Shown: positions 45,340 to 62,896, counted from the stretch's first letter. The stretch is 64,000 bases of DNA from an uncultured virus (IMG/VR IMGVR_UViG_3300028840_006692) (IMGVR_UViG_3300028840_006692), one strand, 5' to 3'. Translations and numbers: made by a program. Notes: a model not told the origin generated them from the sequence alone.

Positions 45340-47519
45340 TTCCCTTCGGCAAGCTTTTGGTTGATTTCTGCTTTGCGGAGACGCCCATCTTCCGCGATTT
45401 GTTGCAGCAATCGAAGATGCATACCTTCTGGGAAATGCTGTTCTAGTAAGGTTTTCACCTGGTCATCGTTTGGATTGCCACCGCTTCGGTTGACAGCAGC
45501 CATAAATAAATTGCGTTTTTCTAGGTATAGCCTCTCAGTATTCGTGATTGTGCAGGTTGGCACACAGTAGCTGGCATCTTGGTTTTCACGTTCGAACCAA
45601 TCCCAACGGGTTCGAACTCTCTTTGGGGAGAGCACCCACACCGCACGCATTGGGTTTTCCGTGTTTGGGTTGGTACGTTCCCAGATTTCGAACGACCACA
45701 TACACCACTCCACCGGCGAAATCTTGTGTGCAATCAACTCCTTGGCACATTCGACAAGGAGGGCGTACCATCGCGAAGTCGTAATCTTTTTGGGGCGCGT
45801 GAAAGACCAGCACTTTTGCCCAAAGTGCTTTTCGTAAGCAGATCGATACCACGCAGCAAGCATTTCTGCGAGGTGTTCATCCGAATCGGTAGCATCGAGG
45901 TAGGGTGCTCCTGGTGTTAGCAGATCTGCAATGCGTGTTAGTTCTGGAAGGAAACTGAATGTACGCGTGCTTCGAGGGGTTGGTTTTGCTTGGGTTGATC
46001 CAAGGCCCATTCCGATTGGCTTGGATGCTGTGATTTGGATTTTTGATATTGGAGCTGCTTGGAGAGATAGGGATTGTGGGGGAGGCACAACCTCCAAAGC
46101 CGATGGTTCGGTTGGTTGAGGATATTTGGCCTTGCATTTGGTTCTTAGTTCAAAAACCTCTTGCTCGGCGTGTTTCGGGTAGCTTCCGGTTTCGGGGTTC
46201 CACCAATCGCAATGCTGAGCCCAGTCATACTTCCAATCTTTGAGGATTACTCTTTTTCGCCCAATGCGGCGTCTTCCGTTTCTTTTACGTGTTTCAGATT
46301 TTTTTTGAGTCTGGTGATGCGTTACTTTTGCAGAAGACGCAACATCGGATGCAGAAGCGGATCCGGATGGAAAAAAAGAAGACGCGCGACCCGGGCCCGG
46401 GTCGCCGTCCCTCTGGGACTCTCTCCGGATCTTCTTTTTGTTTAACTCTTCTTCTCTTAATAGATCCGGTGGCCCGGTTTGGTTTTCGGGGGGGTCAGCC
46501 CGGTTTGGTTTTTCGTCAACAAAAACAATAGGATTGTAGGGGGTCGGCCCGGTTTGGTTTTCGGGGGGGTCAGCCCGGTTTGGTTTTGGGTCCTGCACGC
46601 CCAAGACGCTCGAAAAAGTATACCTTGATGTTTGGGGGGTATTGTGGTTGTTTGTAGGTGTAGGTGCATAAGGATCGTTTGCTTGGTCGTACTCTTTTAC
46701 CGGTCTTGGTGGTCGTGTTTCGATTCGTACCTCTTGGCCGGTCTCTTCCATTTTTCTTCGGAGGTACTCTTCGATACTGATTTTTGGTTCGCCTCTTTTG
46801 TAGATGTCTTCTGGTTTTGGTGCGGGAATGGCCTGCTCGAAAGCGCGTTTCCCGACGGTGTATAGGGGTGGATCTCCGATCGCTTCGCAGTGAGGCAGCA
46901 CCGCGGCCACAGGTGTGGGCTTGTGATCCGGGTTGAAGCGTTCGTTGATTTCTTCGGGTGTTAACCCGCCCGTTGCCCCCAAGTCGGTGGGGTTACAGCG
47001 CAGTGGTCGGTGAAAGAGGGTGCTCTTCTGTGGTTTTGAGGGTCTGCCCCCACCGCGTTTGCCCCCGCGCTTGTTGGCTGTTTTGAGCCAGCGCGCGGTG
47101 GTTATCGGAACGGTTGCCAGCTCGGACAAGCACGCTCCTGCGAGCGTGTGGATGTAGCAAGGCACCTGGATGTATGCATCGATTTTGGTATATTTTACGA
47201 GTCGTATCTGCCAAGGCTTGCGTGCTGATTTGATAAGGTCGGCTTTCGACAGCTTGGTCAGTGCACGTTTTATTTGCGGTACGCTTAGCTTATTTTTGAG
47301 GCGAACCCCCTCGTAGTCGTGCTCTGGTGCCACAAATTGAGCGATACCTTCGATTGTGATGTGCACCGTTCCGGCGGAGTCTCGAAGCGGAAGGAGCGCT
47401 ACCCAGATAGCCCATGCGTTTGGGCCGAGCGCGCCTCTCAGTTCGTTGACTGGGACCTGCGTGTGGTTTTGGGGTGTTTGATCGGGTGCTTCGATGAGAA
47501 TGTGTGCAGGGATGCTCAT
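45324..47519 (-). CDS. Putative replication initiator (N-terminal HTH, internal iteron-like repeats)
   Basis: LG.NAWAIW..L...ITIEGIA...SVPQIKRALTKL.KADLI wHTH-like region; lies directly upstream of helicase and primase; start uncertain (47519 or 47615). Confidence 0.55.
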   Translation of the reverse strand: MSIPAHILIEAPDQTPQNHTQVPVNELRGALGPNAWAIWVALLPLRDSAGTVHITIEGIAQFVAPEHDYEGVRLKNKLSVPQIKRALTKLSKADLIKSARKPWQIRLVKYTKIDAYIQVPCYIHTLAGACLSELATVPITTARWLKTANKRGGKRGGGRPSKPQKSTLFHRPLRCNPTDLGATGGLTPEEINERFNPDHKPTPVAAVLPHCEAIGDPPLYTVGKRAFEQAIPAPKPEDIYKRGEPKISIEEYLRRKMEETGQEVRIETRPPRPVKEYDQANDPYAPTPTNNHNTPQTSRYTFSSVLGVQDPKPNRADPPENQTGPTPYNPIVFVDEKPNRADPPENQTGPPDLLREEELNKKKIRRESQRDGDPGPGRASSFFPSGSASASDVASSAKVTHHQTQKKSETRKRNGRRRIGRKRVILKDWKYDWAQHCDWWNPETGSYPKHAEQEVFELRTKCKAKYPQPTEPSALEVVPPPQSLSLQAAPISKIQITASKPIGMGLGSTQAKPTPRSTRTFSFLPELTRIADLLTPGAPYLDATDSDEHLAEMLAAWYRSAYEKHFGQKCWSFTRPKKITTSRWYALLVECAKELIAHKISPVEWCMWSFEIWERTNPNTENPMRAVWVLSPKRVRTRWDWFERENQDASYCVPTCTITNTERLYLEKRNLFMAAVNRSGGNPNDDQVKTLLEQHFPEGMHLRLLQQIAEDGRLRKAEINQKLAEGKWVWG
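46472..46587. repeat. Four iteron-like copies of GCCCGGTTTGGTTTT (candidate origin)
   Basis: Copies start at 46472, 46498, 46547 and 46573; AT-rich tract at ~46431-46462. Confidence 0.7.
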
Positions 47520-47584
47520 TTTTTCCCTTTGTGTTGTGGCATCGGATGCCGTTGTTGGTTGTTTAGACCGTTTTGCCCGTCCAG

Positions 47585-48967
47585 CTAGCTTGCACGGGTT
47601 GCCGTTTGAACGCAAGCATTTATTCCAGTTTCTCTTTTTCTGCTGGAAATATCAATGGTTGTGGTATGGTATCCTCGGTGTTTGTATGCACGCACACGAT
47701 TGGAGGCTTTTTGAGCCAATAGGCGCGTTTGCGTGTCGAGGAAGTCGAACACTTGGATCTCGGGATCGTTGTCGGTGTGGGTTACTTCTTGCCTGAGAAT
47801 ATCAAGGCAATCGGTTTGCGTTTGCGCTCCACCCGCCAGGATGACGGAGCGAACAGTATTTAGGCCGAGAGTCTCGAGAGTGCTGTTGGTCACGATCGCT
47901 GCTTTCAGAGTGCCCTCTCCGAGCTGTTTGAGGATGCGCATGCGATCGTCTCCGGATAGTCTTCCGGATATGTTTGTTGTGGCGATACCCTCCCGAGTCA
48001 TTGCGGCGGCAAGCGCGTGTCCGTGGGTGGGGTTCGTGACACACACAAGTATGGGCTTGCGAGCCGACTGACACACATGGCACATTGCGCGGATTCTTTC
48101 TTGGCACATCATGACGCATTGTTGGTATGCGCTATCCCAGTTGTAGTCCAGGTGCGGCAACCGCGCGTCCGAGTATCTTACGAGCGTGACTCTGAAGGTA
48201 GTGCTGCTTGTGGTTTTCACTAAGCTTAGCGGGGACAGCTTGTGCATTTGGGGTCCGACCACCCCAATCATCATCGCGTGTCTGTTGTTGCTGTTGTTTA
48301 TGCTTCGAGGTGATATGCCTACCCGATAATAGGCGTGTTTGGCGTGCTTCAAAACGGCAGCAAATGTTTTTGCGGATGCCATTGTGATATCATCCAGGAT
48401 GATGCCTTCCGCAGTGGATAGCAGGTAGCGCTTGAGTGCAGGCTTGTTTCTAATCGCTTGATAGGTTGTGTATGTGATGTTCGTACTAGCCGATCTTATC
48501 GTTGCGTCTGTCACTGTGTAGGTCGTTCCAGTAGCGTCTTTACCCGCTTCTGCTACGTGCCTAGCTGTGCTTGCTGCGTGGGATATGTACACCCAACGAC
48601 AAGGGACGGCTATGGATAATGCTATTGGTAACTGCAGTTTGCCTGCGCTTGAGCAGGCGTGTATGATCCCTCTTTTATTGAGGACTATGGTGTCCACCGT
48701 GTTCTTTTGGTATGGCCGGAGGAACATTAGGTTAGCGTTGGGGTTGGGGGCACATGTGATTTTCCTTGTGTCTATAAATCCTAAATGCACACCCTCTTTC
48801 TTTGCAAACTCTTGTATGATAGGGATAAATCCAGACGGGAATTCACCTGTGGACGTGTCGTACAATGACTCCATGTATCCTGTTTGGAGCTGCCCGTGGA
48901 GCCACCTTTGCTCTTCAGTTGTTGATCGCCGCACTATTGCATACGAATTGTTTACCTCTAAAATCAT
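47585..48967 (-). CDS. SF2 (UvsW/XPB-like) helicase with degenerate motifs
   Basis: LRPYQ Q-motif; Walker A reads ACSSAGKL, Walker B reads ILDDI; no QxxGRxxR; VFDFLD present. Confidence 0.75.
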   Translation of the reverse strand: MILEVNNSYAIVRRSTTEEQRWLHGQLQTGYMESLYDTSTGEFPSGFIPIIQEFAKKEGVHLGFIDTRKITCAPNPNANLMFLRPYQKNTVDTIVLNKRGIIHACSSAGKLQLPIALSIAVPCRWVYISHAASTARHVAEAGKDATGTTYTVTDATIRSASTNITYTTYQAIRNKPALKRYLLSTAEGIILDDITMASAKTFAAVLKHAKHAYYRVGISPRSINNSNNRHAMMIGVVGPQMHKLSPLSLVKTTSSTTFRVTLVRYSDARLPHLDYNWDSAYQQCVMMCQERIRAMCHVCQSARKPILVCVTNPTHGHALAAAMTREGIATTNISGRLSGDDRMRILKQLGEGTLKAAIVTNSTLETLGLNTVRSVILAGGAQTQTDCLDILRQEVTHTDNDPEIQVFDFLDTQTRLLAQKASNRVRAYKHRGYHTTTIDISSRKRETGINACVQTATRAS

Positions 48968-49266
48968 TTTGCTACGCCCTTTATTATATTGTCTAGCTCT
49001 TCTCGGATGCTTTTTACGACGTTGCTTCTAGTTGCCCACAGAAAGAAATTCGGTTCTATTGTTAGGCGTATTCCTGTTGTACTAGCGTCCAACCTGCCTT
49101 TGGTTCCCTTGGCAACGCCCTCTGTGCACACGAATACCACGGAACCGTTTTGGTATCTGTGCACAAGCCCGAACTCTTCTTTGAGGTTGGCTATCACCTG
49201 CTCGACGACTTGGATGATAGTCTTGTTATCTGCTTGGATAGCTTGCTGGATCGTGATTGTCCGCAT
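48964..49266 (-). CDS. PHA_gran_rgn-like small protein
   Basis: I.I.......V....L.EEFGL......V.F.....G..G.L......I.L.I...F.L.A....V...I.EELD pattern across ~95 aa. Confidence 0.55.
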   Translation of the reverse strand: MRTITIQQAIQADNKTIIQVVEQVIANLKEEFGLVHRYQNGSVVFVCTEGVAKGTKGRLDASTTGIRLTIEPNFFLWATRSNVVKSIREELDNIIKGVAK

Positions 49267-49318
49267 GATTGGAGTACCTCTTGGGTTACTCTACCCTACG
49301 GTTTGTTGTATCTGCAAG

Positions 49319-50461
49319 TTATTCGATCGCAATGCCAAGCTTTGAGGCTTTGGTGATTTTTGCTTTGGATGCGGTGGCCGCTACGAGCGTAATTCGTCCG
49401 TTTGAGTCCACATGGTAGGTGGTGCCCCGTGCGCCTGCGATCTTGCCGGTGCCAGGGAGCACGTCTGTTGGGTGTACTCTTCCCGATAGCCCGGATTGTT
49501 GGATTGCCTCGAAAACGTCAAAGTTGGCTTGAAATCCTTGGGGGCTGATCTTGTTTTTTTGTTGTTGGTCGAACCATCGCTTGCCCTCCAGTTGCCCCAA
49601 AATCGAAAGGGCACTGCGGTTTTTGATGTTGAGCGTTGTCACCGGGTTGGGCTGGGTTGCCGGCTTCCGGGTTGCTGGCTTCCGGGTTGCTGGCTTCCGG
49701 GTTGCTGGCTTCCGGGTTGCCGGCTTCCGGGTTGCCGGCTTCCGGGTTGCTGAAGGGTTGGGGTTGGTTGTAGTGGGTAGCGCGAGTTGTTGTGCGCTGG
49801 TGGTTGGCTCAGGTGTGAGCACCAGCGGATTTGCCTTGCTTGTGGGGGGCGCCCTCCTGGATTTCCGGCTTGGCGCTTTTTTGACCGCTTTTCGTGCGGT
49901 GCTGCGTGTGTTGCCGGGGTTTTTTGTGCTTTTGGGGTAGTCCTTGATTGGTATCAGTGGCGGTTGGCGCAAGGTGATCCCGAAGCACGAGGCCGCTTTG
50001 GCAATGTTGACGTAAGCCTGTCGATACTGGGCAGGTGTGATGGACCCATCGTTCCACATCATATTTAGGCGCCCCAGTGCTGCTTGGGTGTGTCCCTTGT
50101 CGTGGATGGGCAGAGCCTTTTTTGCTGGCAGCGCGAACATTTTTTTGGGGATTTGGCGGCGCCGTGCGGCGGTGAGTGCGCCCTTGGGGACTACGCGTTT
50201 GGTTGGGCATCGGGTGTATGTGAGTTTGGGGGCAGTTTTGGATTTCGTTGCGGCCATGGTGCGCTCCATCTGCTCGAGGTGGTCATAGTATCGAGGGTGT
50301 TCCATGAGATGGTCTGCCGCGATCTCCCGAGCGATTGCGCGGTTGGTGGTGTGCTCCATCTCGACTTTGATTCCCTTTTTGAGTTGGGCGGGATCAAATT
50401 GCCTGTAATCTGCGGTGTCTGCTAAACCGCCTTTAAGCCGGTCTTTGGGTTTTCGTGTCAT
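49319..50461 (-). CDS. Modular protein: DUF5661-like, DUF6582-like, basic (PATRK)n linker and shared C-terminal domain
   Basis: QLKKGIKVEMEHT....AREIA.DHL.E.P.YY; LT...R..IP...FALP....PIHD..H...AL.R; C-terminus aligns by eye with those of 50466 and 55026. Confidence 0.7.
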   Translation of the reverse strand: MTRKPKDRLKGGLADTADYRQFDPAQLKKGIKVEMEHTTNRAIAREIAADHLMEHPRYYDHLEQMERTMAATKSKTAPKLTYTRCPTKRVVPKGALTAARRRQIPKKMFALPAKKALPIHDKGHTQAALGRLNMMWNDGSITPAQYRQAYVNIAKAASCFGITLRQPPLIPIKDYPKSTKNPGNTRSTARKAVKKAPSRKSRRAPPTSKANPLVLTPEPTTSAQQLALPTTTNPNPSATRKPATRKPATRKPATRKPATRKPATRKPATQPNPVTTLNIKNRSALSILGQLEGKRWFDQQQKNKISPQGFQANFDVFEAIQQSGLSGRVHPTDVLPGTGKIAGARGTTYHVDSNGRITLVAATASKAKITKASKLGIAIE

Positions 50462-50465
50462 CTTG

Positions 50466-53400
50466 TTACGCTTTCGCTACTCGGAGGATGCCATTCGCTC
50501 GTTGGCGCTTCTCCGGGGTGGAGTATTGTTCCAGCATGAGGACTTCTCCGTCTGCTGCGATCGCGTACCAGGTACCCCGTGTTCCCCGGATCACGCCCCC
50601 GCGGGGCATCACCTCAGCAATGGTTTTCCCTGCTGCGGCTTCACCGGTTTTCACCATGGCCTCGTAGGCAAATCGGTTCATGTGGATGCCGTAGGGTGAC
50701 GGGTTCGGCTTGGTCTGGCGTTCGGCCCATCGGGTTCCTTCGATGATGCCCATCCTTTCCACCACGTTGGGATCGGTGAGGTAGAGCCGCGTTTCGACCA
50801 CCCGCAGCTTCGGGGGGGCTTTGGGTTTGCGTTTTCTTGGAGGCGCTTTTGGCGCTACGGCGGCGAATTGCTTTTTGAGCTCGGAGATCTCCCTCGGGCT
50901 CAGCCGCTCGGGGATGGGGCGTTTCTTGCCCTTGATCAGTTTGGGTTTTGCTGGTGCTGGCTTGGGTGCTGGTGGGAGAGTGTCTTTGGGCAACACCGGT
51001 TCGTCGGGGGAGTAGATCTCGATCAGAGATTGCAACCGATCGATGATTTCTTGCATGCTCACTTCAAAGAGTTTTGCTCCGGTGTCGTCCGGCCCGGTTT
51101 CAAATTGGATCGGTGTGTCTGGATAGGCGATTTCGTAAGCGATTGCGTTATCTAGGGTGCCTTCCCATATTGATAGCTGGGTTTTGTAGTACTTGGTTAT
51201 GGCTGCTCGCGTGCGGCTGTCCTCTATTGGAAATGCAAGTATATCTAGCTCAGCATTCGGATCGAAAATCACACCTCTAATGAGCGCATTGTTCGCCGCT
51301 AGATTTTCGACAATACTGATGGGGCTGTTTACCCAGACCTTATTTGCAGCTGCTAGGTTTTCGAAAACACTCGAAATTGCGGCGATTATGAACTGTTCGC
51401 TGTGATGGCTATAAATGCTTGGGTTTCTGTTTATGTCTTCAAGTAGCTCTTTATGGCCTCCGGTAGCTCCGAGAGAGTATGTGTTGTTTATTGCTGTGTA
51501 TATTTTGTTTACGACTTCTTCGCTGCTATCCATAAGCCAGGACTCAAGCACGTGTGCTATGAGTGCGGTGACATTTTGACTTTTGACTGGCTTGGGTTGA
51601 GGTATAGGATCGCAGGTGAATAGCAGGAGCTTGTAGTCTTTGGGGTTGTAGGCAGATTCTACCCAGATGTACCCATCTTGCCACGTAACAGAGGTTTCCG
51701 TGATGTCGAGATGCGGCTCTAGGTTGATTTTGAGCGTGACCATCTCTCGGACGCTCTTCCACCAATCGCGCATGGCTTTGGTGGAGGCGAAGGCTGCAAA
51801 TTGCTTGTCGATGATTTCTTCCGCCAGCGCGTCGATCTTGGTGGAGGCCACCACGCGAAGGCGTTGTGCCAGATCGGACAATGCTTCAGCGAGCGATTCG
51901 ATGAGGGCGTCAATCGTGTTTGCTGTCACACCGCTTGGTGTGGGGACGTAGCCGGCTCCGTCGGTGAGTGCTTGAGCTGCTTGTTTTGGTGTGAGGCATA
52001 CTCGAGGTTTGGGCGCTTCCAGCGCGAAGGGGACGAATTTGACCTTCGACCCTTCCAGCACCACCGGCTTTGCTGGGGCCTTGGGCTTTGCTGGGGCCTT
52101 GGGCTTTGCTGGGGCTTTGGGCTTTGCTGGGGCCTTGGGGGGTGGTGTTGCTTCGCGTTCGCGTTCTTCTGCTGCTTCTCTCCATGCTCTCCAGGCGGCT
52201 TGTGAGTTTTCGCGAACCTTGGCAGCTACTGCTCGATCTGTTTGTTTGAGTTTTTCGGCTTGGTCGGCCAGGCCGTCTGCGCGGCGTGCAGCGATGTCGA
52301 ACGCTTGGGGTTTGCCCGCGCGTGCGGCTCGCCTGGCGGCTTCCAGGTATTTTTCAGATTCGGCTGCTATGCTTTGGAGCTCTTCTAGCCTTTGTGTATG
52401 CAGAGCTTTGGGATATTCGGGTGTTGGTGTTGGTGTTGGCGCCTTGGGAGCCTCGGGGGCCTTGGGGGCCTTGGGGGCCTTGGGGGCCTTGGGGGCTGCT
52501 TGGTTTGGTATGGGCATGGGTTTTTGATTGGGGAGCGGTTTACCGTATGGCTTTAGTTCGGTTAGCCCGGATCGCATCGGCATCAAAATTCCACACAAGC
52601 GGACGTACTCACCATGATTTGCATAGGTTCTTAGCGGGTTTAGTAGTGTTGATTGAGCAAATGTGACTTGCTCGTCTGTGATGACGTTGCATAGATCCAG
52701 CGTATATTTGGGGGCTAGCCCGATGTGGGGTGGGTTTCCAAGGTACTTAACAGGTATTTGTTGCACTATCGCCTCGTCTGATGAGGCCACACGCATTTTG
52801 CCCTCGTTGTCAGTAAGCATCATGCCCTCTGCTTTTGCGGCAACAAGGGCCGCACAAGCTTTTTTCAGATCTTCCGTGCGACAAGTCCAAATGCTATCGG
52901 GTTTTCCGGTGCTGCTTGTGCCGGTTACAAAATCTTCAATGTTTGGAAACTGTGCGTCTACTTCTTTGTAGATGATCCATCTTTCGATCTGATTGCTGCT
53001 TGTTTTTGGCATGTAAAACCATTTATTGGGTTTTTTGCCCCCATATCTGATTGGCCGCACGTCGCCGGTAAGCTTGCTTGTGAGGGAGGGTAGCAGCCGG
53101 AACGCCTCTCGAGGCATGAGGCTTGTGCTGTTGGTGCTTCCTGGGGGTGCCTCTGCTTCGGCGACGGTCAGACGGTGGCCATCGGTTGCTGATACGCGAA
53201 CCGTGGTTGATTGAGGGGAGTTTTCTGTTTCGATGTAGGCGCTGTTGAGGATTACTCTGGTGGTGTCTGTCGAAATGAAGGGCTCTGTTGTTGCCGCCAG
53301 AGCCGACAAGGCTGCACTCGAGATGGTCATCGTCACGTCGTCGAGGTTTGGTTGAGGGATGCCCGGCCAGTCTCCTGTGTAATGCCCGTTTAGGGACACA

Positions 53401-55016
53401 TTGAAGCCTGTGTGTTGTTCATAAACGTTTATTTGGTATTGGTAGTCATAGCCTGTAACTTCTTGTCGCGATAGGCGGATTACAGAATCACTATCAAAGA
53501 TCGATAGCACTTTTTTCAAGGCTTTGGCGTCGACAAGGGCGGATATGTTGCCAGGTGCGCCTACTGGGATCGTTGTGCGCCCCTCCATGTACATATCGCT
53601 ACCTTCGAGTAGCACCATGTTTTCGTGCGAGTCAATTTTGATGTTTGCCAATACTGCCATAGTCGATTTGGCGTATGTAAACTGTGCGATAAACTTGACA
53701 GCGTCTTGCCAGATTTCTGCGGGCGCCGGCGAAGTGTCACCCGAATGTGGGCCACGCTTACTCAAAAATGAGTGAGGGTCGTCTTCTTTCGAGTCCTTTG
53801 AACCTTCTGTAGATGCTGGCATAACAACTGTAGACACACGTACGTTTGCGATTGTGTCGCGTATTGCGACGTATTCGAGGTAGTCTCTAAACTCTAGTTC
53901 GATGGCCTGGGGGGAGTCTTGGATCTTGACGAACATGTCGATCGCGGCCTTTAGGTATTTTGCGTTGATCCCCACTGATCTATACCAAAATTTCCCTCTT
54001 TTTGGTGCGCTTGCCAGGTTGTACCCAATTCGTAGGCCGTCCACCTCTGCGGCTATAGCGCTTTGCCCCTCATCGTCGATGAAGAACTGCACAATCCCCC
54101 TATTGTCTCCTGTGATGTCGACGGAGCTGGTAGCATCCATCACACCTGCAAGTTTGATGACTCTTTCGACTTTGGGTAGGTCAGTTGTGAGGTTGATTTC
54201 TGTGGTCCAGCCGTAGTCTCTAGGCGCCAGGAAGCTGGCGTGATCGGGAAAGTTCATGTTGCCCAGAAGCACGTCAAAGCGTATTTGGGCCCCGGCTACC
54301 TCCACGGTGAAGGTTGCTGCATCTGGATTGGTTGCAATTGAGGTTTTGCCTACTTTTTTATGCTTGGCGCAATATAAGATGCTATCGACTATCAACGCTG
54401 GGATTAGTATTTGGGTCTTTCCTAGTCCTTTGGCTGCTTTGGTTGCTTTGGTTGTAGCAGCCACCAGTCTATGTCCATCTGTGGCGACCAAACTAAGGTC
54501 TTGTGTGGTTACGTCTAGTAGGACCGCGTTTAGGGTTTCGCGCATGGTGTCACGCGACATAATGGGAGCTGTTGCCGCAAAAAGCGCGTTGAATGTGGTG
54601 TTTGGGTATACTACAGCTTCGGTTGACCTTGGTAGGTCTTTGGGTGTGCCTCCGAGCTTGGCGTCTTTGATTTCGTAGGTTGCCTGCCCGCTTGTAAATG
54701 TGAGCCCTATTTTGGCTTTTGGGGCTTTCCAGTATACTTGGGCTTCTTGGGTTTTCGCCAGCACCTTTTTGACGGTTTGCAGCTCTTTGCTCTCGATTGA
54801 TATGGGTTCGTCCTTAGGAGTAATGTGGTCTTTGCTGATGGTCAATACTTTGGCTTCTACTCTATGCGTTTTGTCGAATTGCCTCATGTATTTGGTGAGC
54901 ACCAGCTCGCCGTCTACGGTTGATATGAAGACTTCGTCGCGTGCGTATGTTTTTTCTTTGATCTTAGCTAATATGTCTATGGCTGCAATTAGCGAATTTG
55001 TGTCTACTACCAACAT
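50466..55016 (-). CDS. 1516-aa polyvalent protein with two tandem DNA pol III beta-clamp-like units and a shared C-terminal domain
   Basis: Unit 1: SRD.MRETLNAV, VATDGHRL, FPD, GINAKYL, VVMP. Unit 2: STD.TRVILN, SATDGHRL, QFPN, LAPKY.LD, ILMPMR. Confidence 0.75.
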   Translation of the reverse strand: MLVVDTNSLIAAIDILAKIKEKTYARDEVFISTVDGELVLTKYMRQFDKTHRVEAKVLTISKDHITPKDEPISIESKELQTVKKVLAKTQEAQVYWKAPKAKIGLTFTSGQATYEIKDAKLGGTPKDLPRSTEAVVYPNTTFNALFAATAPIMSRDTMRETLNAVLLDVTTQDLSLVATDGHRLVAATTKATKAAKGLGKTQILIPALIVDSILYCAKHKKVGKTSIATNPDAATFTVEVAGAQIRFDVLLGNMNFPDHASFLAPRDYGWTTEINLTTDLPKVERVIKLAGVMDATSSVDITGDNRGIVQFFIDDEGQSAIAAEVDGLRIGYNLASAPKRGKFWYRSVGINAKYLKAAIDMFVKIQDSPQAIELEFRDYLEYVAIRDTIANVRVSTVVMPASTEGSKDSKEDDPHSFLSKRGPHSGDTSPAPAEIWQDAVKFIAQFTYAKSTMAVLANIKIDSHENMVLLEGSDMYMEGRTTIPVGAPGNISALVDAKALKKVLSIFDSDSVIRLSRQEVTGYDYQYQINVYEQHTGFNVSLNGHYTGDWPGIPQPNLDDVTMTISSAALSALAATTEPFISTDTTRVILNSAYIETENSPQSTTVRVSATDGHRLTVAEAEAPPGSTNSTSLMPREAFRLLPSLTSKLTGDVRPIRYGGKKPNKWFYMPKTSSNQIERWIIYKEVDAQFPNIEDFVTGTSSTGKPDSIWTCRTEDLKKACAALVAAKAEGMMLTDNEGKMRVASSDEAIVQQIPVKYLGNPPHIGLAPKYTLDLCNVITDEQVTFAQSTLLNPLRTYANHGEYVRLCGILMPMRSGLTELKPYGKPLPNQKPMPIPNQAAPKAPKAPKAPKAPEAPKAPTPTPTPEYPKALHTQRLEELQSIAAESEKYLEAARRAARAGKPQAFDIAARRADGLADQAEKLKQTDRAVAAKVRENSQAAWRAWREAAEEREREATPPPKAPAKPKAPAKPKAPAKPKAPAKPVVLEGSKVKFVPFALEAPKPRVCLTPKQAAQALTDGAGYVPTPSGVTANTIDALIESLAEALSDLAQRLRVVASTKIDALAEEIIDKQFAAFASTKAMRDWWKSVREMVTLKINLEPHLDITETSVTWQDGYIWVESAYNPKDYKLLLFTCDPIPQPKPVKSQNVTALIAHVLESWLMDSSEEVVNKIYTAINNTYSLGATGGHKELLEDINRNPSIYSHHSEQFIIAAISSVFENLAAANKVWVNSPISIVENLAANNALIRGVIFDPNAELDILAFPIEDSRTRAAITKYYKTQLSIWEGTLDNAIAYEIAYPDTPIQFETGPDDTGAKLFEVSMQEIIDRLQSLIEIYSPDEPVLPKDTLPPAPKPAPAKPKLIKGKKRPIPERLSPREISELKKQFAAVAPKAPPRKRKPKAPPKLRVVETRLYLTDPNVVERMGIIEGTRWAERQTKPNPSPYGIHMNRFAYEAMVKTGEAAAGKTIAEVMPRGGVIRGTRGTWYAIAADGEVLMLEQYSTPEKRQRANGILRVAKA

Positions 55017-55025
55017 CTTGTCCTC

Positions 55026-56855
55026 TTATCCTACCCGTAGGATGCCTCGGGCCAGTTGTCGTTTTTCTGGGGTTGAGAATTGCCGCATCATGAGCACTTC
55101 GCCGTCTGATGCGATTGCGTACCAGGTACCCCGGGTGCCTTTGATCACGCCCCCTCTGGGCATCACCTCAGCGATCGTTTTGCCTTGCTGGGCCTCGCCG
55201 GTGCGCTGGAGGGCCTCAAAGGCAAACCGGTTCATGTGCACCCCAAATGGCGAATCGTTGGGTTTGGCTTGTTTGGCTTTCCACGATTCGCCTTCGATCA
55301 GGCCCAGATGGAAGAGTACGTCGGGATCGGTGATGTACACCTTTGCCACTGAGGGAGTTGGTGGTGGTGGGACACGCGTTGTCTTGGGGACTTCTGCGGC
55401 GTACATGCGCTTGGGTTTTGCCGGCTTGGGGGGTGGTGGTGCTGGCTTGGGGGGTGGTGGTGCCGGCTTGGGGGGCGGTGTTTTTGGTTTTTCTCCCATG
55501 GCTATGGGTGCCAGCTGGGGGTCCACCAGGTAGTTTGCGATGCGGTTACCCTGATTTTCGTAGCTCAGTGTGGCGAAGGTCCCAGCTTTGAGCGCCAGCC
55601 CGAGATTTTCCAGCTGTTGCCATTGTGATGGCGTGATGCTGCCCTTTTTGCGCTCGCTCATGCGTAGATACTCTGAAGCGGTGCCCTTACCTCGGGTGAC
55701 GCTGATTCCAGGCGCGACTGAGCTGGCCACGCGGCGGATCATCGCGGCGCGTTCGTTTAAATCCGTTGGGATTTGCTTTCTTGTCAGGGCGATGTTTTGG
55801 ATTTGAATCCCGAAGCGTTCCATTTCCTCGCGGGGGAGCAGTTTTTCGGGAGATACTGCTTGCTGGATGGTTTTGACATAGTCGGTGGTATCCTGCACAT
55901 TTGCTTGAAACCCAGGGATTCCGAAGTTGCGACTTACTTCGTAGGTGTTGGCCCAGCTTTCACCGGGTTTGCCCGCAACGTAGCGCCACTTGATCTTGAT
56001 CGATGCGCTTCCGCCGTTGACTCTGGTGAAAAATAACGTCTCGACCGCAGATCCAAAAATCCGATACTGTGGATCTTTTGGATCTGGGTTGTACCCCGCC
56101 CACTCGATCCCAGTCGTTTCGTTGATCCAAGCGTGATATTCGGGAATCGCGGCGATGGCTGCTTGTTGGATGGCCTCGTTCGGGTTTTTTGGTTTGGTTG
56201 CGGCACTTATGGGTTGACCTAGAAACTTGCGGCCAAGGTCTGTAAATTGAAGCTTGTTTCCATTTACTTCCGCCAAAATGCCTATCTTGATAAGATGGGA
56301 TATCCCGTTGGACTTGTGCAGCTCGCCTACGTCTGCAGGAAACCATGTTAGCGGTATGGCGGCATAACTGAATTTGGGCGCTTTTTGGATCTGTTCACGT
56401 GCAGCTGTAATGAACCGGTGTTTGATGTCTTGCCTGAGCAGGTGCCTATGATCTCGGAAGACCTCTTCCCAGGTGGGGGTTTTGGGTTTTGCTTGGGGCG
56501 TTTTTGTGCCCATGACAAGCGTTGCCAGCTCTGGATCTGCCAGCCATTTTTGCAGCAAGTATTTCCGATCTTCTGGGCTGATCGTTTTGAGATTCCCCCA
56601 ACGGTCTGCGACTTCGAGCTTTTCGAGCTGTTTCCATTGCAAATCGGTGATTGGTGGTTTCTCGTAGGTGGGTCGTTGCACATCGACCCATCCTGCAGCG
56701 GTGCCGCGTTCCCGCGTGACGCGGATCCCAGGGTTGACGGATCGGAGTACTCTTCGGATACTTGCGGCTTGCTCGTTTAGATCGAGCTTGTTTAGGTCGA
56801 ATGGTGCGGCTTCTGGTTTGCCGCCTTTGATCGCTTGGAGTTTTGGTGGTGCCAT
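55026..56855 (-). CDS. Polyvalent protein with a duplicated ~95-aa domain and a shared C-terminal domain
   Basis: DLNE.AA.IRRV..SV.PGI.VTR..GTA...IT..QW.QLE.L...L.DP.LA...MG appears twice; the last ~100 aa are highly similar to those of 50466..55016. Confidence 0.75.
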   Translation of the reverse strand: MAPPKLQAIKGGKPEAAPFDLNKLDLNEQAASIRRVLRSVNPGIRVTRERGTAAGWVDVQRPTYEKPPITDLQWKQLEKLEVADRWGNLKTISPEDRKYLLQKWLADPELATLVMGTKTPQAKPKTPTWEEVFRDHRHLLRQDIKHRFITAAREQIQKAPKFSYAAIPLTWFPADVGELHKSNGISHLIKIGILAEVNGNKLQFTDLGRKFLGQPISAATKPKNPNEAIQQAAIAAIPEYHAWINETTGIEWAGYNPDPKDPQYRIFGSAVETLFFTRVNGGSASIKIKWRYVAGKPGESWANTYEVSRNFGIPGFQANVQDTTDYVKTIQQAVSPEKLLPREEMERFGIQIQNIALTRKQIPTDLNERAAMIRRVASSVAPGISVTRGKGTASEYLRMSERKKGSITPSQWQQLENLGLALKAGTFATLSYENQGNRIANYLVDPQLAPIAMGEKPKTPPPKPAPPPPKPAPPPPKPAKPKRMYAAEVPKTTRVPPPPTPSVAKVYITDPDVLFHLGLIEGESWKAKQAKPNDSPFGVHMNRFAFEALQRTGEAQQGKTIAEVMPRGGVIKGTRGTWYAIASDGEVLMMRQFSTPEKRQLARGILRVG

Positions 56856-56895
56856 TGGTATATTGTACCAGATTTGGGGGTAAGGTGGGGTCGGA

Positions 56896-58980
56896 TTACT
56901 TAGTTTTGCTGACCTTGCGGGCTTTGCTTGTGGGTCTGGTGATGCCCAGTTTGGCCAGCTGGTCGTCGGTGAGCTGCCTGTGATGATACCCGGCGATCCG
57001 GATGACGAGCGCTACCTGCCGATCTGTCAGTTCGCTTTTGGCTGCCAGCCATTTGCCGGGCTTGGTCCAGAATTTCGAGAACCCGGCATTGTCTCGGGAG
57101 GCGGCGCCGTCGCAGTACCCCGCAATGGTGCGGATGGCCTCGAGTGCGGCGTCGTGCGTGTCTTTGGTGTACTGAGGTGGTCTGCGCCCCGGGCCCGTCT
57201 CGCTGTCGTCGAGGTAGATGGGATCGTTTCCGAGCTGGGCGTCCAGAGCGCCATCACAGATTGCCTGCTTTTTGATCAGCGTGGCGGCCATACGCTGATC
57301 AAGGGACCCGTCCAGCACCAAATGCTGGACCAAGACGGAGTCTTTTTGACCTATGCGGTGGCATCGATCCTCAGCCTGGCTCATGTTTGCGGGCACATAG
57401 TCCAGTTCGGCAAAAACGACGTTGCTGGAAGCTGTTAGGGTGATCCCCACCCCGGCCGCCAGGATGTTGCCCACGAAGACCCTGCACGTGGGATTTTCTT
57501 GGAACTGCTTGACGGCGTCGTTTTTGGCCTGGTCTGAGTCTTTGCCGGTGAGCCTGACGGGCCCGAACTCTGCCAATCCTTCCATGATGCCGTCCACCAC
57601 CGCGTGGTGGTGGGCGAACACCACGACTTTTTCTTGGTTATCCTCGAGCATGTCGCGCAGGTGCTCAACCGCGTGGGGGATCTTTGCAACGGCGGTGTCC
57701 CTTCGGGCCGCGGCGATTTCCTCGAAAGCCACCCGGGTGCAGGCTTGGAGGTTCTTGACTGCTTCTTCGTAGGCCGCCTTGTCGGCCTGCTCTTGGGCGA
57801 TCAAAAGTGCCGCGCGGGCCAAATCGACTTGCTCTTGGACCTTTTCCCACGCGGCTTGCTCTTTTGCGATGACGCCCGATGCCCCGTTGGGCTCAAGCAC
57901 CGTGAGCACCCGGCGCTTGGCCGGGAGCTCGGTTAGCACGTCTTTCTTGAGCCTGCGAATCATGAGACCACCGTTCTCGGTGCGGAGTCTACGCTGCAAC
58001 TCCTCGAGATTTTGGGCACCGCTGAAATCCCAAACCATCTTACGGCCGGCCCAAACTTGCTCAGCCGCACAGTACCTTTTGGCGTAGTACATAAAATTTC
58101 GCCAGGTTTGGGGGTCCAAACTGGAGATCAGCCCCCAGAGCTCCACGGGCTTGTTGGCGATTGGGGTGCCGGTCAAATAGACTTTTTTGAACGCCTTTTC
58201 GGCCAGTCCGCCGGCGCCCTGGCGGTTTCCGATGACCGCAAGGGTTCGCTGCGCCTTTGGGTTCTTTACTTTGTGCGCTTCGTCGATGATGAGCATGTCC
58301 CACTGGTGGTTTTTGAGCTCTCCGAGGAGAGCTTCCCCTCGTTTTCCCGTGAGTCTTTCGAAGTTGGTCACAACGATCAGAACCTTGCCTTTTTCGTGTG
58401 CGGGCAAGTCCCCCGCCTGCTGAACGATTCCGGCCTGCAGAGGTTTGGTGATCCATCGGGTGGCTTCTGCCACCCAATTCCGGCGAAGGGTGGCGGGGCA
58501 GACCACCAGCACCTTTCGAATTTGGGGGTCGGCGTTGATCGCACCGAGTACTTGGATCGTCTTCCCGAGGCCCATTTCGTCTCCCAAGAGGGTAGACTGT
58601 CGTTTGACGATCCACTCGATCCCCGCCTTTTGGTACGGCAGGTATTCGCGCCCGTCGGGGCAATCCACGTTGAAATTGGTGGGCACGGCCACATCTGTGG
58701 CCCTGCTTGCCGCTTCTGCAGCTTTGCTTTGGTCTACCGCTGCTTTGGCGTTGGCGTCCATGTTGGCGTAGAAGCGCCCCGCGATGCTCAGATCGCGGGT
58801 ATGCCAGCTGTAGGCGGGGAGCCCCGCCCTACAAGCTGGGCACTTCGCCCAGCATTTTCCGGAGCTGACGCCCCAGCAAAAGCGAAATCCCGCGGCCTTG
58901 AGAGCTTCGCGGGCTTTCTTTTGGTCGTAGCTGGTGTTTGCATAAAAAATACCTTTTTTAAACTGGACTACGGGTGCCAT
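56896..58980 (-). CDS. SNF2-family (SMARCAL1/HARP-like) helicase/translocase
   Basis: LPYQ, GDEMGLGKT, DEAH, LTGTP..N, RRLK..VL.ELP.K, GVGITLT, QAEDRCHRIGQ. Confidence 0.93.
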   Translation of the reverse strand: MAPVVQFKKGIFYANTSYDQKKAREALKAAGFRFCWGVSSGKCWAKCPACRAGLPAYSWHTRDLSIAGRFYANMDANAKAAVDQSKAAEAASRATDVAVPTNFNVDCPDGREYLPYQKAGIEWIVKRQSTLLGDEMGLGKTIQVLGAINADPQIRKVLVVCPATLRRNWVAEATRWITKPLQAGIVQQAGDLPAHEKGKVLIVVTNFERLTGKRGEALLGELKNHQWDMLIIDEAHKVKNPKAQRTLAVIGNRQGAGGLAEKAFKKVYLTGTPIANKPVELWGLISSLDPQTWRNFMYYAKRYCAAEQVWAGRKMVWDFSGAQNLEELQRRLRTENGGLMIRRLKKDVLTELPAKRRVLTVLEPNGASGVIAKEQAAWEKVQEQVDLARAALLIAQEQADKAAYEEAVKNLQACTRVAFEEIAAARRDTAVAKIPHAVEHLRDMLEDNQEKVVVFAHHHAVVDGIMEGLAEFGPVRLTGKDSDQAKNDAVKQFQENPTCRVFVGNILAAGVGITLTASSNVVFAELDYVPANMSQAEDRCHRIGQKDSVLVQHLVLDGSLDQRMAATLIKKQAICDGALDAQLGNDPIYLDDSETGPGRRPPQYTKDTHDAALEAIRTIAGYCDGAASRDNAGFSKFWTKPGKWLAAKSELTDRQVALVIRIAGYHHRQLTDDQLAKLGITRPTSKARKVSKTK

Positions 58981-59120: not shown

Positions 59121-59741
59121 TTATGCAGGGGCCCAGTGGGAGGCTACGGTAGGGCTAGGAGTATCTAGGCGGTACCAGTGGTTCCCGTTTGAGACGCCCC
59201 AGACGAACCACGCATAAGCGCTTGCATCGGTTTTGCCGTCGCTCGTGAAAGATGGTCTAGGCACAAGCACGTAGACATCTGGGGGATTTCGCGCAAGGAG
59301 CCTCGCGCGTTTTTTGCTCTCGAGAAAGCGCAATCTTAGGAGCAGGCACACCAAGGCATCGGTGCGCGCGGCGATGGCTAGACATTTTTTGACGAATTCT
59401 CCGGCTAGCGAGTAAGGCGGATTTGTGATGATCAGTTTGGGTTCTGCGCATGGAGCGTATTCGTCGCTCAAAAAGTCTCCGCAATGGGTATTCACTCCAA
59501 GCTCCTCGCAGCACTTGGCGCGGTCGCGCCAAGATTCTACAGCTTCGAGTTTGTGTTTTTGGTGTCCTCGATCGAGGAGGACTCGGAGGATTGCGCCGTC
59601 TCCAGCGGCAGGCTCAAGTACTCTATGGTCCATGGAGACCAGCGCAGACGGCAAGCGATTTAGGATCGCGTGCACTGCGCTTGCTGGCGTGGTGTAGAAA
59701 TCTTGTGGGATGCGTACGTTTGATCTGTTGGTTGCGCTCAT
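59121..59741 (-). CDS. Small N6-adenine DNA methyltransferase
   Basis: DFY.TP, LEPAAGDGAI, DFL, ITNPPY, LLRL.FLE, YAWFVW. Confidence 0.88.
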   Translation of the reverse strand: MSATNRSNVRIPQDFYTTPASAVHAILNRLPSALVSMDHRVLEPAAGDGAILRVLLDRGHQKHKLEAVESWRDRAKCCEELGVNTHCGDFLSDEYAPCAEPKLIITNPPYSLAGEFVKKCLAIAARTDALVCLLLRLRFLESKKRARLLARNPPDVYVLVPRPSFTSDGKTDASAYAWFVWGVSNGNHWYRLDTPSPTVASHWAPA

Positions 59742-60394: not shown

Positions 60395-60464
60395 GGTGGT
60401 ATTCTACCATATATGGTTGTGCAGATCCGCATATAGCGTTATCACCGTGGAAGGAGGCACGAAA

Positions 60465-60977: not shown

Positions 60978-60989
60978 TATGATCACCGT

Positions 60990-61481: not shown

Positions 61482-61531
61482 CTTAGATTTTTGGTGCGTC
61501 GGGTGATTGCGTAGTATGGTGTGGGTGGATC

Positions 61532-62596: not shown

Positions 62597-62608
62597 AGGA
62601 AATACCCA

Positions 62609-62896
62609 ATGCTTTGTGCATCTCACGAAGAAACAGCCGAAAATGATGAAACGTGCCCGTATTGTGAGTTACAATACCGCGCAACATTGCAAACTGTGTT
62701 TGACGCAGGAATGAGTGTTCTCGAAAAGATGACCTCGGTGGAATTTCTTGCTACTGATGTGGTCAACGCACGGAATAGCGGGTTGGACGAGCTGTTTGCA
62801 GCGATCGACAAGTTGGAGGCTGCTCTGAAAGAGCTCGAGGTGGAGCTTTCGGCACTTGATACCTTGTCGGATTTGCCGGTCAAGGTGTCCGAGTAA
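62609..62896 (+). CDS. Small Zn-finger/coiled-coil protein
   Basis: AAGGA SD; C..H...CPYC followed by a coiled coil. Confidence 0.55.
   Translation: MLCASHEETAENDETCPYCELQYRATLQTVFDAGMSVLEKMTSVEFLATDVVNARNSGLDELFAAIDKLEAALKELEVELSALDTLSDLPVKVSE

What the first reader, a model, noticed from the sequence alone, without database searches (positions are those of the whole stretch)
52570..55016. Two complete beta-clamp-like protomers fused head-to-tail: a possible single-chain sliding clamp
Seen: two ~380-400-aa units, each with the DnaN motifs (S.D..R..LN, ATDGHRL, FP, N/PKY, terminal MP). Known: DnaN works as a head-to-tail homodimer of three-domain protomers. Inference: one polypeptide could close a six-domain ring, tethered to ~700 aa of extra domains. 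No clamp loader or Pol III is visible, so it may be a self-loading DNA ring, a decoy for host clamp partners, or a co-ejected DNA-protection factor.
Basis: partly seen in the sequence, partly recalled or inferred. Interest (0 to 1): 0.75.

Follow-up and report, generated by a model that had tools for sequence, protein, structure and literature searches.

The report
Natural single-chain tandem sliding clamp
An uncultured phage encodes one long protein holding two complete copies of the bacterial DNA sliding-clamp subunit joined end to end, enough for a whole DNA-encircling ring from one chain, and it ends in a small unknown domain that its neighbouring genes also carry.

Summary
Observation confirmed. 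ORF 50466-55016 (-) encodes 1,516 aa. Residues 1-402 and 435-816 are each a full three-domain DnaN-type clamp protomer, joined by a ~32-aa Pro-rich linker. Unit 2 aligns end to end with ordinary DnaN (198 bits). Unit 1 is more diverged (65 bits), but its AlphaFold2 model (pLDDT 84.7, pTM 0.85) superposes on whole solved beta clamps (TM 0.75/0.85).

The fusion is not an artefact. A second assembly is identical over residues 1-839. Two distant relatives (~22-25% identical, P0152 and P0112) have the same unit1-linker-unit2 order, with unit 1 grouping with unit 1 and unit 2 with unit 2.

Ring closure was not modelled. It is inferred from DnaN biology and from engineered single-chain beta clamps that work with an 11-aa linker (PMC3763527).

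New here: the last ~105 aa are a confidently modelled domain with no known fold. The two flanking gene products carry it too, and so do five consecutive proteins, including an SNF2 ATPase, in the relative's locus. The conserved neighbourhood is methylase, SNF2, clamp and DUF5661, at the head of the replication operon.

Best reading: a single-chain clamp acting as the DNA-riding platform of this module.

The parts
50466..55016 (-). Whole ORF, 1,516 aa (P0001): unit 1, linker, unit 2, ~590-aa lineage-specific insert with its linkers, shared C-terminal domain
   Evidence: GAGG lies 5 nt before the ATG at 55016.
53811..55016 (-). Clamp unit 1 (aa 1-402): a diverged but complete three-domain DnaN-type protomer. 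It keeps ATDGHRL (178-184) and the terminal VVMP (397-400).
   Evidence: DnaN profile aa 85-401, 65.2 bits. Alignment A3 invariant columns P125, D180, R183, M399, P400. AF2 pLDDT 84.7, pTM 0.85. Foldseek to full-length beta clamps, TMt up to 0.85.
53715..53810 (-). Inter-unit linker (aa 403-434), rich in Pro, Ser and charged residues. The motif S-[KR]-x-G-P...P-x-P is shared with P0152 and P0112.
   Evidence: pLDDT <50 for aa 405-415 at the end of the unit-1 model. Alignment A1. BLASTP with P0112 runs straight across it.
52569..53714 (-). Clamp unit 2 (aa 435-816): the more canonical DnaN protomer. It keeps ATDGHRL (610-616) and the terminal LMPMR (811-815).
   Evidence: DnaN profile positions 9-366 of 367, 198.2 bits. 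PDB 5wce_A E 1.4e-13, aa 447-791 on residues 28-356 of 379. TIGR00663 aa 438-815. All three Pfam DnaN domains.
50784..52568 (-). Insert found only in this lineage (aa ~817-1411): PKA repeats (DNA repeats at 52441-52496 and 52066-52139), an Ala/Arg/Glu-rich stretch that I read as helical, a ~350-aa probably globular part (aa ~985-1340), and a Pro/Lys-rich linker. No relatives were found.
   Evidence: Absent from P0152 and P0112. No Pfam hit better than E 0.17. No usable Atlas hit. Tandem repeats. The helical and globular readings are by eye from the sequence; no predictor was run.
50469..50783 (-). Shared C-terminal domain (CTD, aa ~1412-1516), fold unknown
   Evidence: My profile of 8 copies: E 1e-39 to 1e-53 on each copy, which match by construction, and no further copy in the window. 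AF2 pLDDT 86.6, pTM 0.76. No fold match.
55026..56855 (-). Upstream neighbour, 609 aa. Its N-terminal ~465 aa have no known family. A P-rich repeat (55419-55480) precedes the same CTD (aa ~505-609; 71% identical to the clamp's copy).
49319..50461 (-). Downstream neighbour, 380 aa: N-terminal DUF5661 (aa 18-67), a RKPAT-type repeat (49654-49750), and a divergent subtype of the CTD (aa ~274-380)
56896..58980 (-). SNF2-family ATPase, 694 aa. It has no CTD here. Its 1,142-aa counterpart in locus L004 carries the CTD.
   Evidence: PF00176 E 1.3e-37. 40% identity to L004 13326-16754. CTD on the L004 copy.
59121..59741 (-). DNA methyltransferase-like gene, first recognisable gene of the module
   Evidence: phrog_799 E 1.4e-48

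Best explanation
The gene encodes a natural single-chain beta sliding clamp.

Shown:
- Two full DnaN-type protomers, only about 14% identical to each other, are joined head to tail by a ~32-residue flexible linker.
- The arrangement arose once, before this phage lineage and the P0152/P0112 lineage separated. Both units have stayed under similar constraint since.

Inferred:
- The two units pair with each other as DnaN protomers do. This gives a six-domain pseudo-dimeric ring with two non-identical partner-binding clefts.
- Unit 1's domain III is tied by the linker to unit 2's domain I. So only the other interface (unit 2 domain III against unit 1 domain I) can act as a gate for DNA. Otherwise the ring must thread over a free DNA end.

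Also shown:
- The clamp is followed by long Pro/Lys-rich tethers and ends in a ~105-aa domain of unknown fold.
- The same domain ends the two flanking proteins here. In a distant relative's locus it ends five consecutive proteins, including the SNF2 ATPase.

Inferred function: the shared domain is a protein-docking module. It gathers the clamp, the SNF2 translocase, the DUF5661 protein and proteins of unknown family onto each other or onto one common partner. The clamp would then be the DNA-encircling mobile platform of a methylase/SNF2 DNA-transaction module at the head of the phage's replication operon. Serving the phage PolA as a processivity factor is possible as well, but it is not what the conserved neighbourhood points to.
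For: Six clamp domains.

Cleft residues: alignments to 60 DnaNs keep the family's invariant columns in both units (D180/R183/M399/P400 and D612/R615/M812/P813), together with T-G-H-L of TDGHRL, FP and Y.

Pore charge: the six inner helices sum to +5 in each unit, against a reference median of +5 and range 0-8.

Not an artefact.

Conserved architecture:
- P0112 (904 aa) and P0152 (990 aa) each have two DnaN-profile domains.
- They align collinearly with the query through the linker.
- phmmer gives unit 2 against their unit 2 40.4 and 31.1 bits, versus 10.7 and 9.2 bits against their unit 1. Unit 1 against the unit 1 of P0152 gives 12.2 bits versus 1.2.
- In the tree, the unit-1 rows and the unit-2 rows each form one group, SH-aLRT 93-94.
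- P0152 and P0112 are 74% identical in unit 1 and 71% in unit 2.

Shared CTD.

Synteny of SNF2, clamp, DUF5661 protein and methylase in both loci.

CTD is probably not a generic DNA binder: its net charge ranges from -11 to +7 between copies.
Against:
- The unit-1 model rests on an alignment seeded with DnaNs, so its DnaN-like fold is partly built in.
- The tree groups join long branches (the tool's own warning).
- In this window the SNF2 lacks the CTD.
- The module sits directly upstream of helicase, DnaB, primase, PolA and SSB genes. That fits a plain replisome role equally well.
- No canonical clamp-binding motif (QLxLF type) was found in any of 42 window ORFs, so no client is identified.
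- In P0152 and P0112 the canonical cleft motifs survive only in unit 1, next to the linker-bridged interface. This does not fit one simple loader-gate model for the whole family.
- The family is tiny: three proteins plus near-identical copies.
Confidence: 0.55

Rival explanations
1. An ordinary replicative processivity factor. The tandem clamp simply replaces a DnaN homodimer for the phage PolA (or recruits host Pol III), loaded by the host clamp loader. The C-terminal parts only anchor it in the phage replisome.
For: It lies in one same-strand gene array with two helicases, DnaB, primase, PolA-UDG and SSB. PHROG 947 is annotated as a processivity factor. Both clefts look intact. An engineered single-chain beta is accepted by the E. 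coli loader.
Against: No clamp-binding motif was found in PolA or in any other of the 42 ORFs. The relative's 23-kb locus keeps clamp, SNF2, DUF5661 and methylase together, with no polymerase recognised among the 12 ORFs scanned. Family-A phage polymerases are not known to me to use beta clamps (recalled).
Confidence: 0.25
2. A 'polyvalent protein in pieces'. The CTD is a capsid-targeting or co-ejection tag, so that clamp, DUF5661 protein, the 609-aa protein (and SNF2 in the relative) are packed in the virion. They would enter the cell with the DNA and protect or modify it before host restriction acts.
For: The methylase-SNF2 dyad is the DarB-like signature of injected early-phase effectors (PMC5512222, passages). 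Flexible tethers followed by a common terminal domain are what a cargo tag would look like. Earlier unchecked notes of this scan report DnaN-like modules, once in tandem, inside giant virion proteins of other phages.
Against: The genes sit with replication genes, not with recognisable head genes. No portal, terminase or MuF-like gene could be recognised at all. The polyvalent-protein paper never mentions clamp, DnaN or PCNA (0 occurrences). A folded ~8-nm ring could not pass a tail tube (inference).
Confidence: 0.15
3. A clamp mimic or decoy. The protein does not need to encircle DNA. It uses its two clefts to sequester host clamp clients (clamp loader, Pol III, Hda, repair enzymes) and shut down host replication.
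For: The cleft-lining motifs are the best-conserved parts of both units. No phage clamp loader was seen.
Against: All six domains and the positive inner helices are retained, which a pure decoy would not need. Both units are equally constrained in the relatives, yet one of their two clefts has lost its motifs.
Confidence: 0.08
4. The units pair between chains rather than within a chain, for example unit 1 with the unit 2 of another molecule. That would give dimers carrying two rings, or open polymers.
For: The ~32-aa linker would allow it. Nothing computed here excludes it.
Against: Intramolecular pairing is favoured by effective concentration (inference). Engineered tandem beta behaves as a normal clamp.
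Confidence: 0.07

Closest known systems
Bacterial beta sliding clamp DnaN (Pfam PF00712/PF02767/PF02768; TIGR00663; e.g. PDB 5wce, 7ybd, 1mmi)
   Same: Each unit has the three-domain clamp fold, the TDGHRL and C-terminal MP(M) cleft motifs, and positively charged inner helices.
   Different: Two protomers sit in one chain, 14% identical to each other (53 of 373 mapped positions). They are at most ~30% identical to any of 1.84 billion representative proteins. The score is below the TIGR00663 equivalog cut-off (115.9 vs 137.65). About 700 further residues follow.
[quoted passage not shown]
   Same: Two DnaN protomers are fused head to tail by a short linker, leaving a single openable interface. 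The engineered form keeps loader-stimulating activity (passages read).
   Different: Those are laboratory constructs of two identical protomers with an 11-aa or His-tag linker. One was reported to be proteolysed in vivo. This is a natural, anciently fixed fusion of two very different units.
Phage-encoded DnaN-like processivity factors (PHROG 947)
   Same: Best PHROG match, E 9.4e-49, covering profile positions 7-365 of 368.
   Different: The profile is 368 positions long, the size of one unit. Here it matches twice in one protein. The only phage-record match by tblastn covers unit 2 alone at 22.7% identity.
Polyvalent proteins and the DarB-like methylase-SNF2 dyad of phages and conjugative elements (Iyer, Burroughs, Anand, de Souza, Aravind 2017, PMC5512222)
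   Same: The neighbourhood contains a methylase and an SNF2 ATPase, alongside large multidomain proteins with unknown domains.
   Different: The functions are on separate polypeptides that share a terminal domain. No clamp domain is described in that paper (0 occurrences of clamp, DnaN or PCNA). No link to packaging or a type IV secretion system is visible here.
Asymmetric clamps made of non-identical subunits (Sulfolobus heterotrimeric PCNA, eukaryotic 9-1-1); recalled, no call
   Same: A ring whose positions have diverged, so that each binds different partners. Here the units differ, and in P0152 and P0112 only unit 1 keeps the canonical cleft motifs.
   Different: Those rings are built from separate PCNA-type two-domain subunits, not from a fused DnaN-type chain.

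Membership tests
Beta sliding clamp DnaN (PF00712/PF02767/PF02768; TIGR00663) | Three consecutive domains of the DNA-clamp fold per protomer | tested here: met
   Unit 1: the AF2 model has three repeats of the strand-helix-strand pattern, pTM 0.85, and matches full-length beta clamps by Foldseek with TMt 0.73-0.85 over ~405-430 columns. Unit 2: the DnaN profile covers positions 9-366 of 367 and all three Pfam domains hit; it was not folded.
Beta sliding clamp DnaN (PF00712/PF02767/PF02768; TIGR00663) | Scores above the curated family cut-offs | tested here: not met
   TIGR00663 equivalog: 115.9 bits against a cut-off of 137.65. Pfam for the whole protein: PF02767 59.2 vs 27 and PF00712 31.3 vs 24.4 pass; PF02768 26.8 vs 27 just fails. 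It is therefore a homologue of the fold family, not an equivalog of bacterial DnaN.
Beta sliding clamp DnaN (PF00712/PF02767/PF02768; TIGR00663) | Conserved residues lining the partner-binding cleft (TDGHRL loop, C-terminal MPM) | tested here: met
   Both units keep them: unit 1 T179-L184 and M399/P400; unit 2 T611-L616 and M812/P813/R815. That these residues line the cleft is recalled from E. coli beta structures.
Beta sliding clamp DnaN (PF00712/PF02767/PF02768; TIGR00663) | Free-standing ~360-400-aa subunit that forms a head-to-tail homodimer | tested here: not met
   Two different units are fused in one 1,516-aa chain.
Beta sliding clamp DnaN (PF00712/PF02767/PF02768; TIGR00663) | Closed ring that encircles duplex DNA, loaded by a clamp loader, tethering polymerases | not testable with these tools
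Biochemistry is needed.
Polyvalent proteins of phages and conjugative elements (PMC5512222) | Several unrelated effector domains in one polypeptide, typically including a methylase, SNF2, peptidase or ADP-ribosyltransferase | tested here: inconclusive
   The protein has two clamp units, an unknown ~570-aa insert and the CTD. The methylase and SNF2 are neighbours, not fused.
Polyvalent proteins of phages and conjugative elements (PMC5512222) | Genomic link to head packaging (portal/terminase/MuF) or to a conjugative type IV secretion system | tested here: inconclusive
   No such gene was recognised among the window ORFs scanned (38 with Pfam, 42 with PHROGs) or among the 12 scanned in L004. However, 23 of 31 ORFs have no PHROG hit at all, so absence is not shown.

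The most novel reading that the evidence does not exclude
The shared C-terminal domain is a private address tag that assembles a 'polyvalent protein in pieces'. A single-chain clamp threads over the free end of the linear phage genome without any loader, in the capsid or at entry. Through the common tag it carries the SNF2 translocase, the DUF5661 protein and other factors along the incoming DNA. That would be a loader-independent, clamp-based delivery system for DNA-protecting enzymes.
Probability: 0.12. Interest if true: 0.9.

Novelty: new variant of a known kind. Interest (0 to 1): 0.68.

Why it matters
All characterised bacterial-type clamps known to me are homodimers (recalled). Single-chain versions exist as laboratory tools, built to ask how many clefts and which interface a clamp needs.

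A natural, anciently fixed single-chain beta clamp has two diverged halves and, by topology, a single possible DNA gate. It is an evolved answer to those questions. It is also an example of a symmetric ring becoming asymmetric by fusion.

The shared C-terminal domain of unknown fold, hung on flexible tethers from the clamp and from its SNF2, DUF5661 and unknown neighbours, suggests a way of assembling clamp clients that does not use the classical short clamp-binding peptide.

Both points are directly testable with recombinant protein.

Tried and rejected
Searches for fused relatives:
- Word-indexed search for relatives of 833-2,653 aa with residues 1-830: none.
- The same search with alignment A1: none, not even P0112 or P0152, so that tool is insensitive here.
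- Full HMMER search of 1.84 billion representatives: 1,008 hits at E<=1e-3, of which the best 150 were listed. Only 1 of those 150 (P0112) has two units. The other 858 were not seen.
- tblastn of P0001 against GenBank phages: 1 weak single-unit hit.
- tblastn of P0152 against phages and against plasmids: no match.

IMG/VR, metagenome and genome scans:
- With P0001, P0112, A1, A6 and A7 they returned only other assemblies of the same phage, plus L005 and L006. I rejected L005 and L006 because my CTD profile gives no hit on them.
- The single metagenome scan returned only P0152's own contig.
- Two genome-contig scans: nothing.
- Alignment A5 was too diverse for a scan.

CTD:
- No Pfam hit (protein 28).
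- No PDB hit by profile (best E 0.15, a designed propeller).
- Atlas best score 0.81, which is uninformative.
- Foldseek PDB best E 1.4. VIA-align over 48,161 chains best Z 2.9. BFVD best E 0.57.
- A winged-helix reading suggested by eye was not supported by any of these.

Other checks:
- Insert aa 985-1345: no usable Atlas hit.
- PADLOC: only generic SNF2 and methylase similarities. Nothing for the clamp or the CTD proteins.
- NCBIfam: nothing for the 609-aa, 380-aa or 763-aa proteins.
- Clamp-binding motifs: none in 42 ORFs. This is a crude regex.
- Promoter and terminator scan of 48.5-61.5 kb: at the level of shuffled sequence.
- Alignment A2 put unit 1 of the relatives on unit 2 of the query and was not used for folding.
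- Complex prediction on unit 1 with unit 2: tool unavailable, nothing folded.
- Own assembly not held. The nearest record, G001, lacks the region.
- Sequencing runs: no RNA holder listed.

Literature:
- Five searches for a natural tandem or fused DnaN found none. DUF5661 occurs in 0 papers.
- These searches cover only the held library.

Full report
**What is there.** The finding's span lies in one minus-strand ORF, 50466-55016, of 1,516 codons without a stop. It begins at an ATG preceded by AAGAGGA, with the GAGG 5 nt upstream, directly after the stop codon of the upstream gene. The gene sits in a long same-strand array, in this order:
- methyltransferase (59121-59741)
- SNF2 ATPase (56896-58980)
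- a 609-aa protein of unknown family (55026-56855)
- this ORF
- a 380-aa DUF5661 protein (49319-50461)
- a 460-aa helicase
- a 763-aa protein of unknown family
- DnaB-like helicase, primase, a 224-aa protein
- PolA with an N-terminal UDG-superfamily domain
- SSB

The window is phage-like. It has tail-spike-like genes, integrases and IMG/VR relatives, but it is very novel: 23 of the 31 ORFs have no PHROG hit.

**Two complete clamp units.**
- Pfam's DnaN central domain hits both halves above threshold: 34.3 bits at aa 140-213 and 35.5 bits at aa 566-647, cut-off 27.
- PHROG 947 and TIGR00663 each match in two stretches.
- Against PDB sequences, 47 of the 48 distinct sequences matched at E<=1 are beta clamps. 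Unit 2 aligns almost end to end (5wce_A, E 1.4e-13, aa 447-791 on residues 28-356 of 379). Unit 1 aligns over its central part (7rzm_A, E 6.3e-7).
- A profile built from 60 ordinary DnaNs without the query gives aa 85-401 (65.2 bits) and aa 435-815 (198.2 bits, profile positions 9-366 of 367).
- When unit 1 alone is aligned with those DnaNs, the family's invariant columns fall on P125, D180, R183, M399 and P400. The same columns in unit 2 are P551, D612, R615, M812 and P813.
- AlphaFold2 on the unit 1 alignment gives pLDDT 84.7 and pTM 0.85, with three repeats of the clamp-domain strand/helix pattern. Only residues 405-415, the start of the linker, fall below pLDDT 50.
- Foldseek returns at least 500 PDB matches at E<=0.001. 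The listed ones are beta clamps (a few in complexes), aligned over ~405-430 columns with target-normalised TM 0.68-0.85.
- Caveat: the alignment fed to the fold contained DnaNs.
- The six helices that should line the pore sum to +5 in each unit. That equals the median of the 60 reference DnaNs, whose range is 0-8.
- The two units are only 14% identical to each other (53 of 373 positions mapped through the DnaN alignments). Direct BLASTP finds only the central motif.

**Not an artefact, and conserved.**
- An IMG/VR contig from another sample encodes the same protein up to its contig end. 857 of 864 residues are identical, residues 1-839 have no change, and the differences lie in the PKA repeat.
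- Contigs of two public runs from two studies bridge 52455-55100 and differ only at 52485-52496. Both runs may be sources of this DNA.
- The exhaustive HMMER search found 1,008 proteins at E<=1e-3 but none at E<=1e-30. The best are ordinary 360-380-aa DnaNs, about 30% identical to unit 2.
- One listed hit, P0112 (904 aa), aligns with the query from the end of unit 1 through the linker into unit 2. Its 71%-identical relative P0152 (990 aa) was found next.
- Both have two DnaN-profile domains. Of the 152 proteins held, only these two and the query do.
- The three align collinearly: unit 1, a Pro-rich linker with a shared S-[KR]-x-G-P motif, unit 2, and a C-terminal domain that is cut off in P0112.
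- Unit 2 of the query is closest to their unit 2 (40.4 and 31.1 bits, against 10.7 and 9.2 for their unit 1). Unit 1 is closest to the unit 1 of P0152 (12.2 against 1.2 bits).
- In a maximum-likelihood tree with 40 DnaNs, the three unit-1 rows and the three unit-2 rows each form one group (SH-aLRT 93-94). The tool warns that long branches meet.
- P0152 and P0112 are 74% identical in unit 1 and 71% in unit 2, so neither half is decaying.
- The fusion is therefore old and maintained. Whether it arose by duplication or by joining two different dnaN genes is unresolved, because the two groups are not sisters and support there is weak.

**Ring closure is an inference, not a result.**
- I could not fold the whole chain. 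MAFFT put the relatives' unit 1 on the query's unit 2 in the combined alignment. The complex predictor was unavailable.
- In favour: DnaN protomers are obligate head-to-tail partners (established knowledge). All six domains, the cleft residues and the pore charge are retained.
[quoted passage not shown] A ~32-residue natural linker is more than enough.
- Sutton's laboratory also built a tandem dnaN and reported that its linker was proteolysed in vivo (PMC3022782, one passage read).
- A topological consequence, by inference: the linker bridges the interface between unit 1 domain III and unit 2 domain I. DNA can therefore enter only through the other interface, or the closed ring must thread over a DNA end.
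- In the query, the unit next to the free gate (unit 2) is the more canonical one. In P0152 and P0112, unit 2 has lost TDGHR and the terminal MPMR, and only unit 1 keeps them. I cannot reconcile this with one loader-gate model.
- One cleft is known to suffice in E. coli (PMC3022782, title and listing abstract).

**The rest of the protein and the shared domain.**
- Residues ~817-1411 are absent from P0152 and P0112. They consist of PKA-type repeats (DNA repeats at 52441-52496 and 52066-52139), an Ala/Arg/Glu-rich stretch, a ~350-aa region without any relative, and another Pro/Lys-rich linker.
- The last ~105 residues are different. BLASTP and a profile show the same domain at the C-terminus of the 609-aa upstream protein and of the DUF5661 downstream protein. 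It is found nowhere else in the window.
- In the metagenome locus L004 that encodes P0152, five consecutive proteins end in this domain: a 712-aa and a 336-aa protein of unknown family, the tandem clamp, a 1,142-aa SNF2 ATPase (40% identical to the window's) and a 740-aa DUF5661 protein. A methylase gene follows.
- Each copy is preceded by a Pro/Lys-rich, often tandem-repeated, linker.
- The AlphaFold2 model from nine copies is confident (pLDDT 86.6, pTM 0.76) but matches nothing: Foldseek PDB best E 1.4, VIA-align over 48,161 chains best Z 2.9, BFVD best E 0.57. There is no Pfam, PDB-profile or Atlas signal either.
- Copies are more alike within a genome (71% here, 50-63% in L004) than between genomes (32-40%). 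The copy on the DUF5661 proteins is a separate subtype, 24-32% identical to everything else.
- Net charge runs from -11 to +7. This argues against a generic DNA-binding role and for a protein-protein role that co-evolves within each genome.

**Interpretation.**
- The conserved set is methylase, SNF2, tandem clamp, DUF5661 protein and proteins of unknown family, linked by a common tethered terminal domain. In L004 no polymerase is recognised among the 12 ORFs scanned.
- My best reading (0.55) is a single-chain clamp that serves as the DNA-encircling platform of this module, with the shared domain as the docking device.
- A plain processivity role for the adjacent PolA is the main rival (0.25). 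No clamp-binding peptide was found in any of 42 ORFs, but that test is crude.
- The methylase-SNF2 dyad is the signature of injected DarB-like effectors (PMC5512222, passages). Earlier unchecked notes of this scan describe DnaN-like modules, once in tandem, inside giant virion proteins of other phages. That keeps a 'polyvalent protein in pieces, co-packaged through the shared domain' reading alive (0.15). The paper itself never mentions a clamp.
- Decoy and inter-chain pairing readings are less likely.

**Novelty.**
- Five searches of the held literature found no natural tandem or fused DnaN. Only engineered single-chain clamps turned up.
- I rate this a new variant of a known kind, carrying a domain of unknown fold. 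The family is small: three proteins plus near-identical copies, from sediment and seawater metagenomes as labelled.
- Only 150 of the 1,008 hits were inspected, so the family's true size is unknown.

Noticed in passing
window 49322-49642, 50469-50783, 55029-55343; L004 ORF ends at 9004, 10327, 13329, 16754, 18973: Copies of the shared C-terminal domain are more alike within a genome (71%; 50-63%) than between genomes (32-40%). This suggests gene conversion or co-evolution with a genome-specific partner. The copy on DUF5661 proteins is a separate, basic subtype in both genomes. The two close window copies are 72.5% identical at the DNA level over 313 nt.
   Followed up: partly
window 39846-42446 (-): The family-A DNA polymerase carries an N-terminal uracil-DNA-glycosylase-superfamily domain (PF03167, aa 49-186) ahead of the 3'-5' exonuclease and polymerase domains.
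   Followed up: no
window 52441-52496, 52066-52139, 49654-49750, 55419-55480: In-frame tandem DNA repeats (periods 9, 18, 15 and 21 nt) encode Pro/Lys-rich linkers in all three CTD-bearing genes. The first repeat differs by a 4-aa indel between two assemblies and is the only variable spot in the laid contigs.
   Followed up: partly
L008 (G002:C1:1-18500) against window 1-64000: A near-identical strain continues past the window's right end. L008 17820-18500 equals window 64000-63320 at 100%. Its tail-fibre/tail-spike region matches the window only in one 329-nt piece at 86% (L008 6276-6601 with window 3216-2891). This suggests a circularly permuted genome of ~72 kb with swapped host-range genes.
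   Followed up: partly
window 737-23690 and 60210-63962: 23 of the 31 ORFs scanned have no PHROG hit at E<=1e-5. No portal, terminase or major capsid protein could be recognised by PHROGs or Pfam. The lineage is very poorly charted.
   Followed up: no
window 46000-58000: There is a strong negative AT skew (about -0.3) on the plus strand across the clamp/SNF2/helicase genes, much stronger than elsewhere in the window.
   Followed up: no
window 26394-27197, 33522-34478, 24419-25258 (all -): Two tyrosine-integrase-like ORFs and an ORF with a LexA-type DNA-binding domain sit in the middle of the genome. The phage may be temperate.
   Followed up: no
P0001 aa 563-701 (window ~52914-53330): phrog_3007, labelled 'RusA-like Holliday junction resolvase', hits the central DnaN domain of unit 2 (E 2.7e-10). 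The PHROG label is probably wrong for this family.
   Followed up: no
L004 2501-5526 (-): Type I restriction-modification S and M subunit genes, the M subunit with an N-terminal HTH, lie upstream of and divergent from the clamp module in the relative's locus. Whether L004 is a phage, a plasmid or an island is not known.
   Followed up: no
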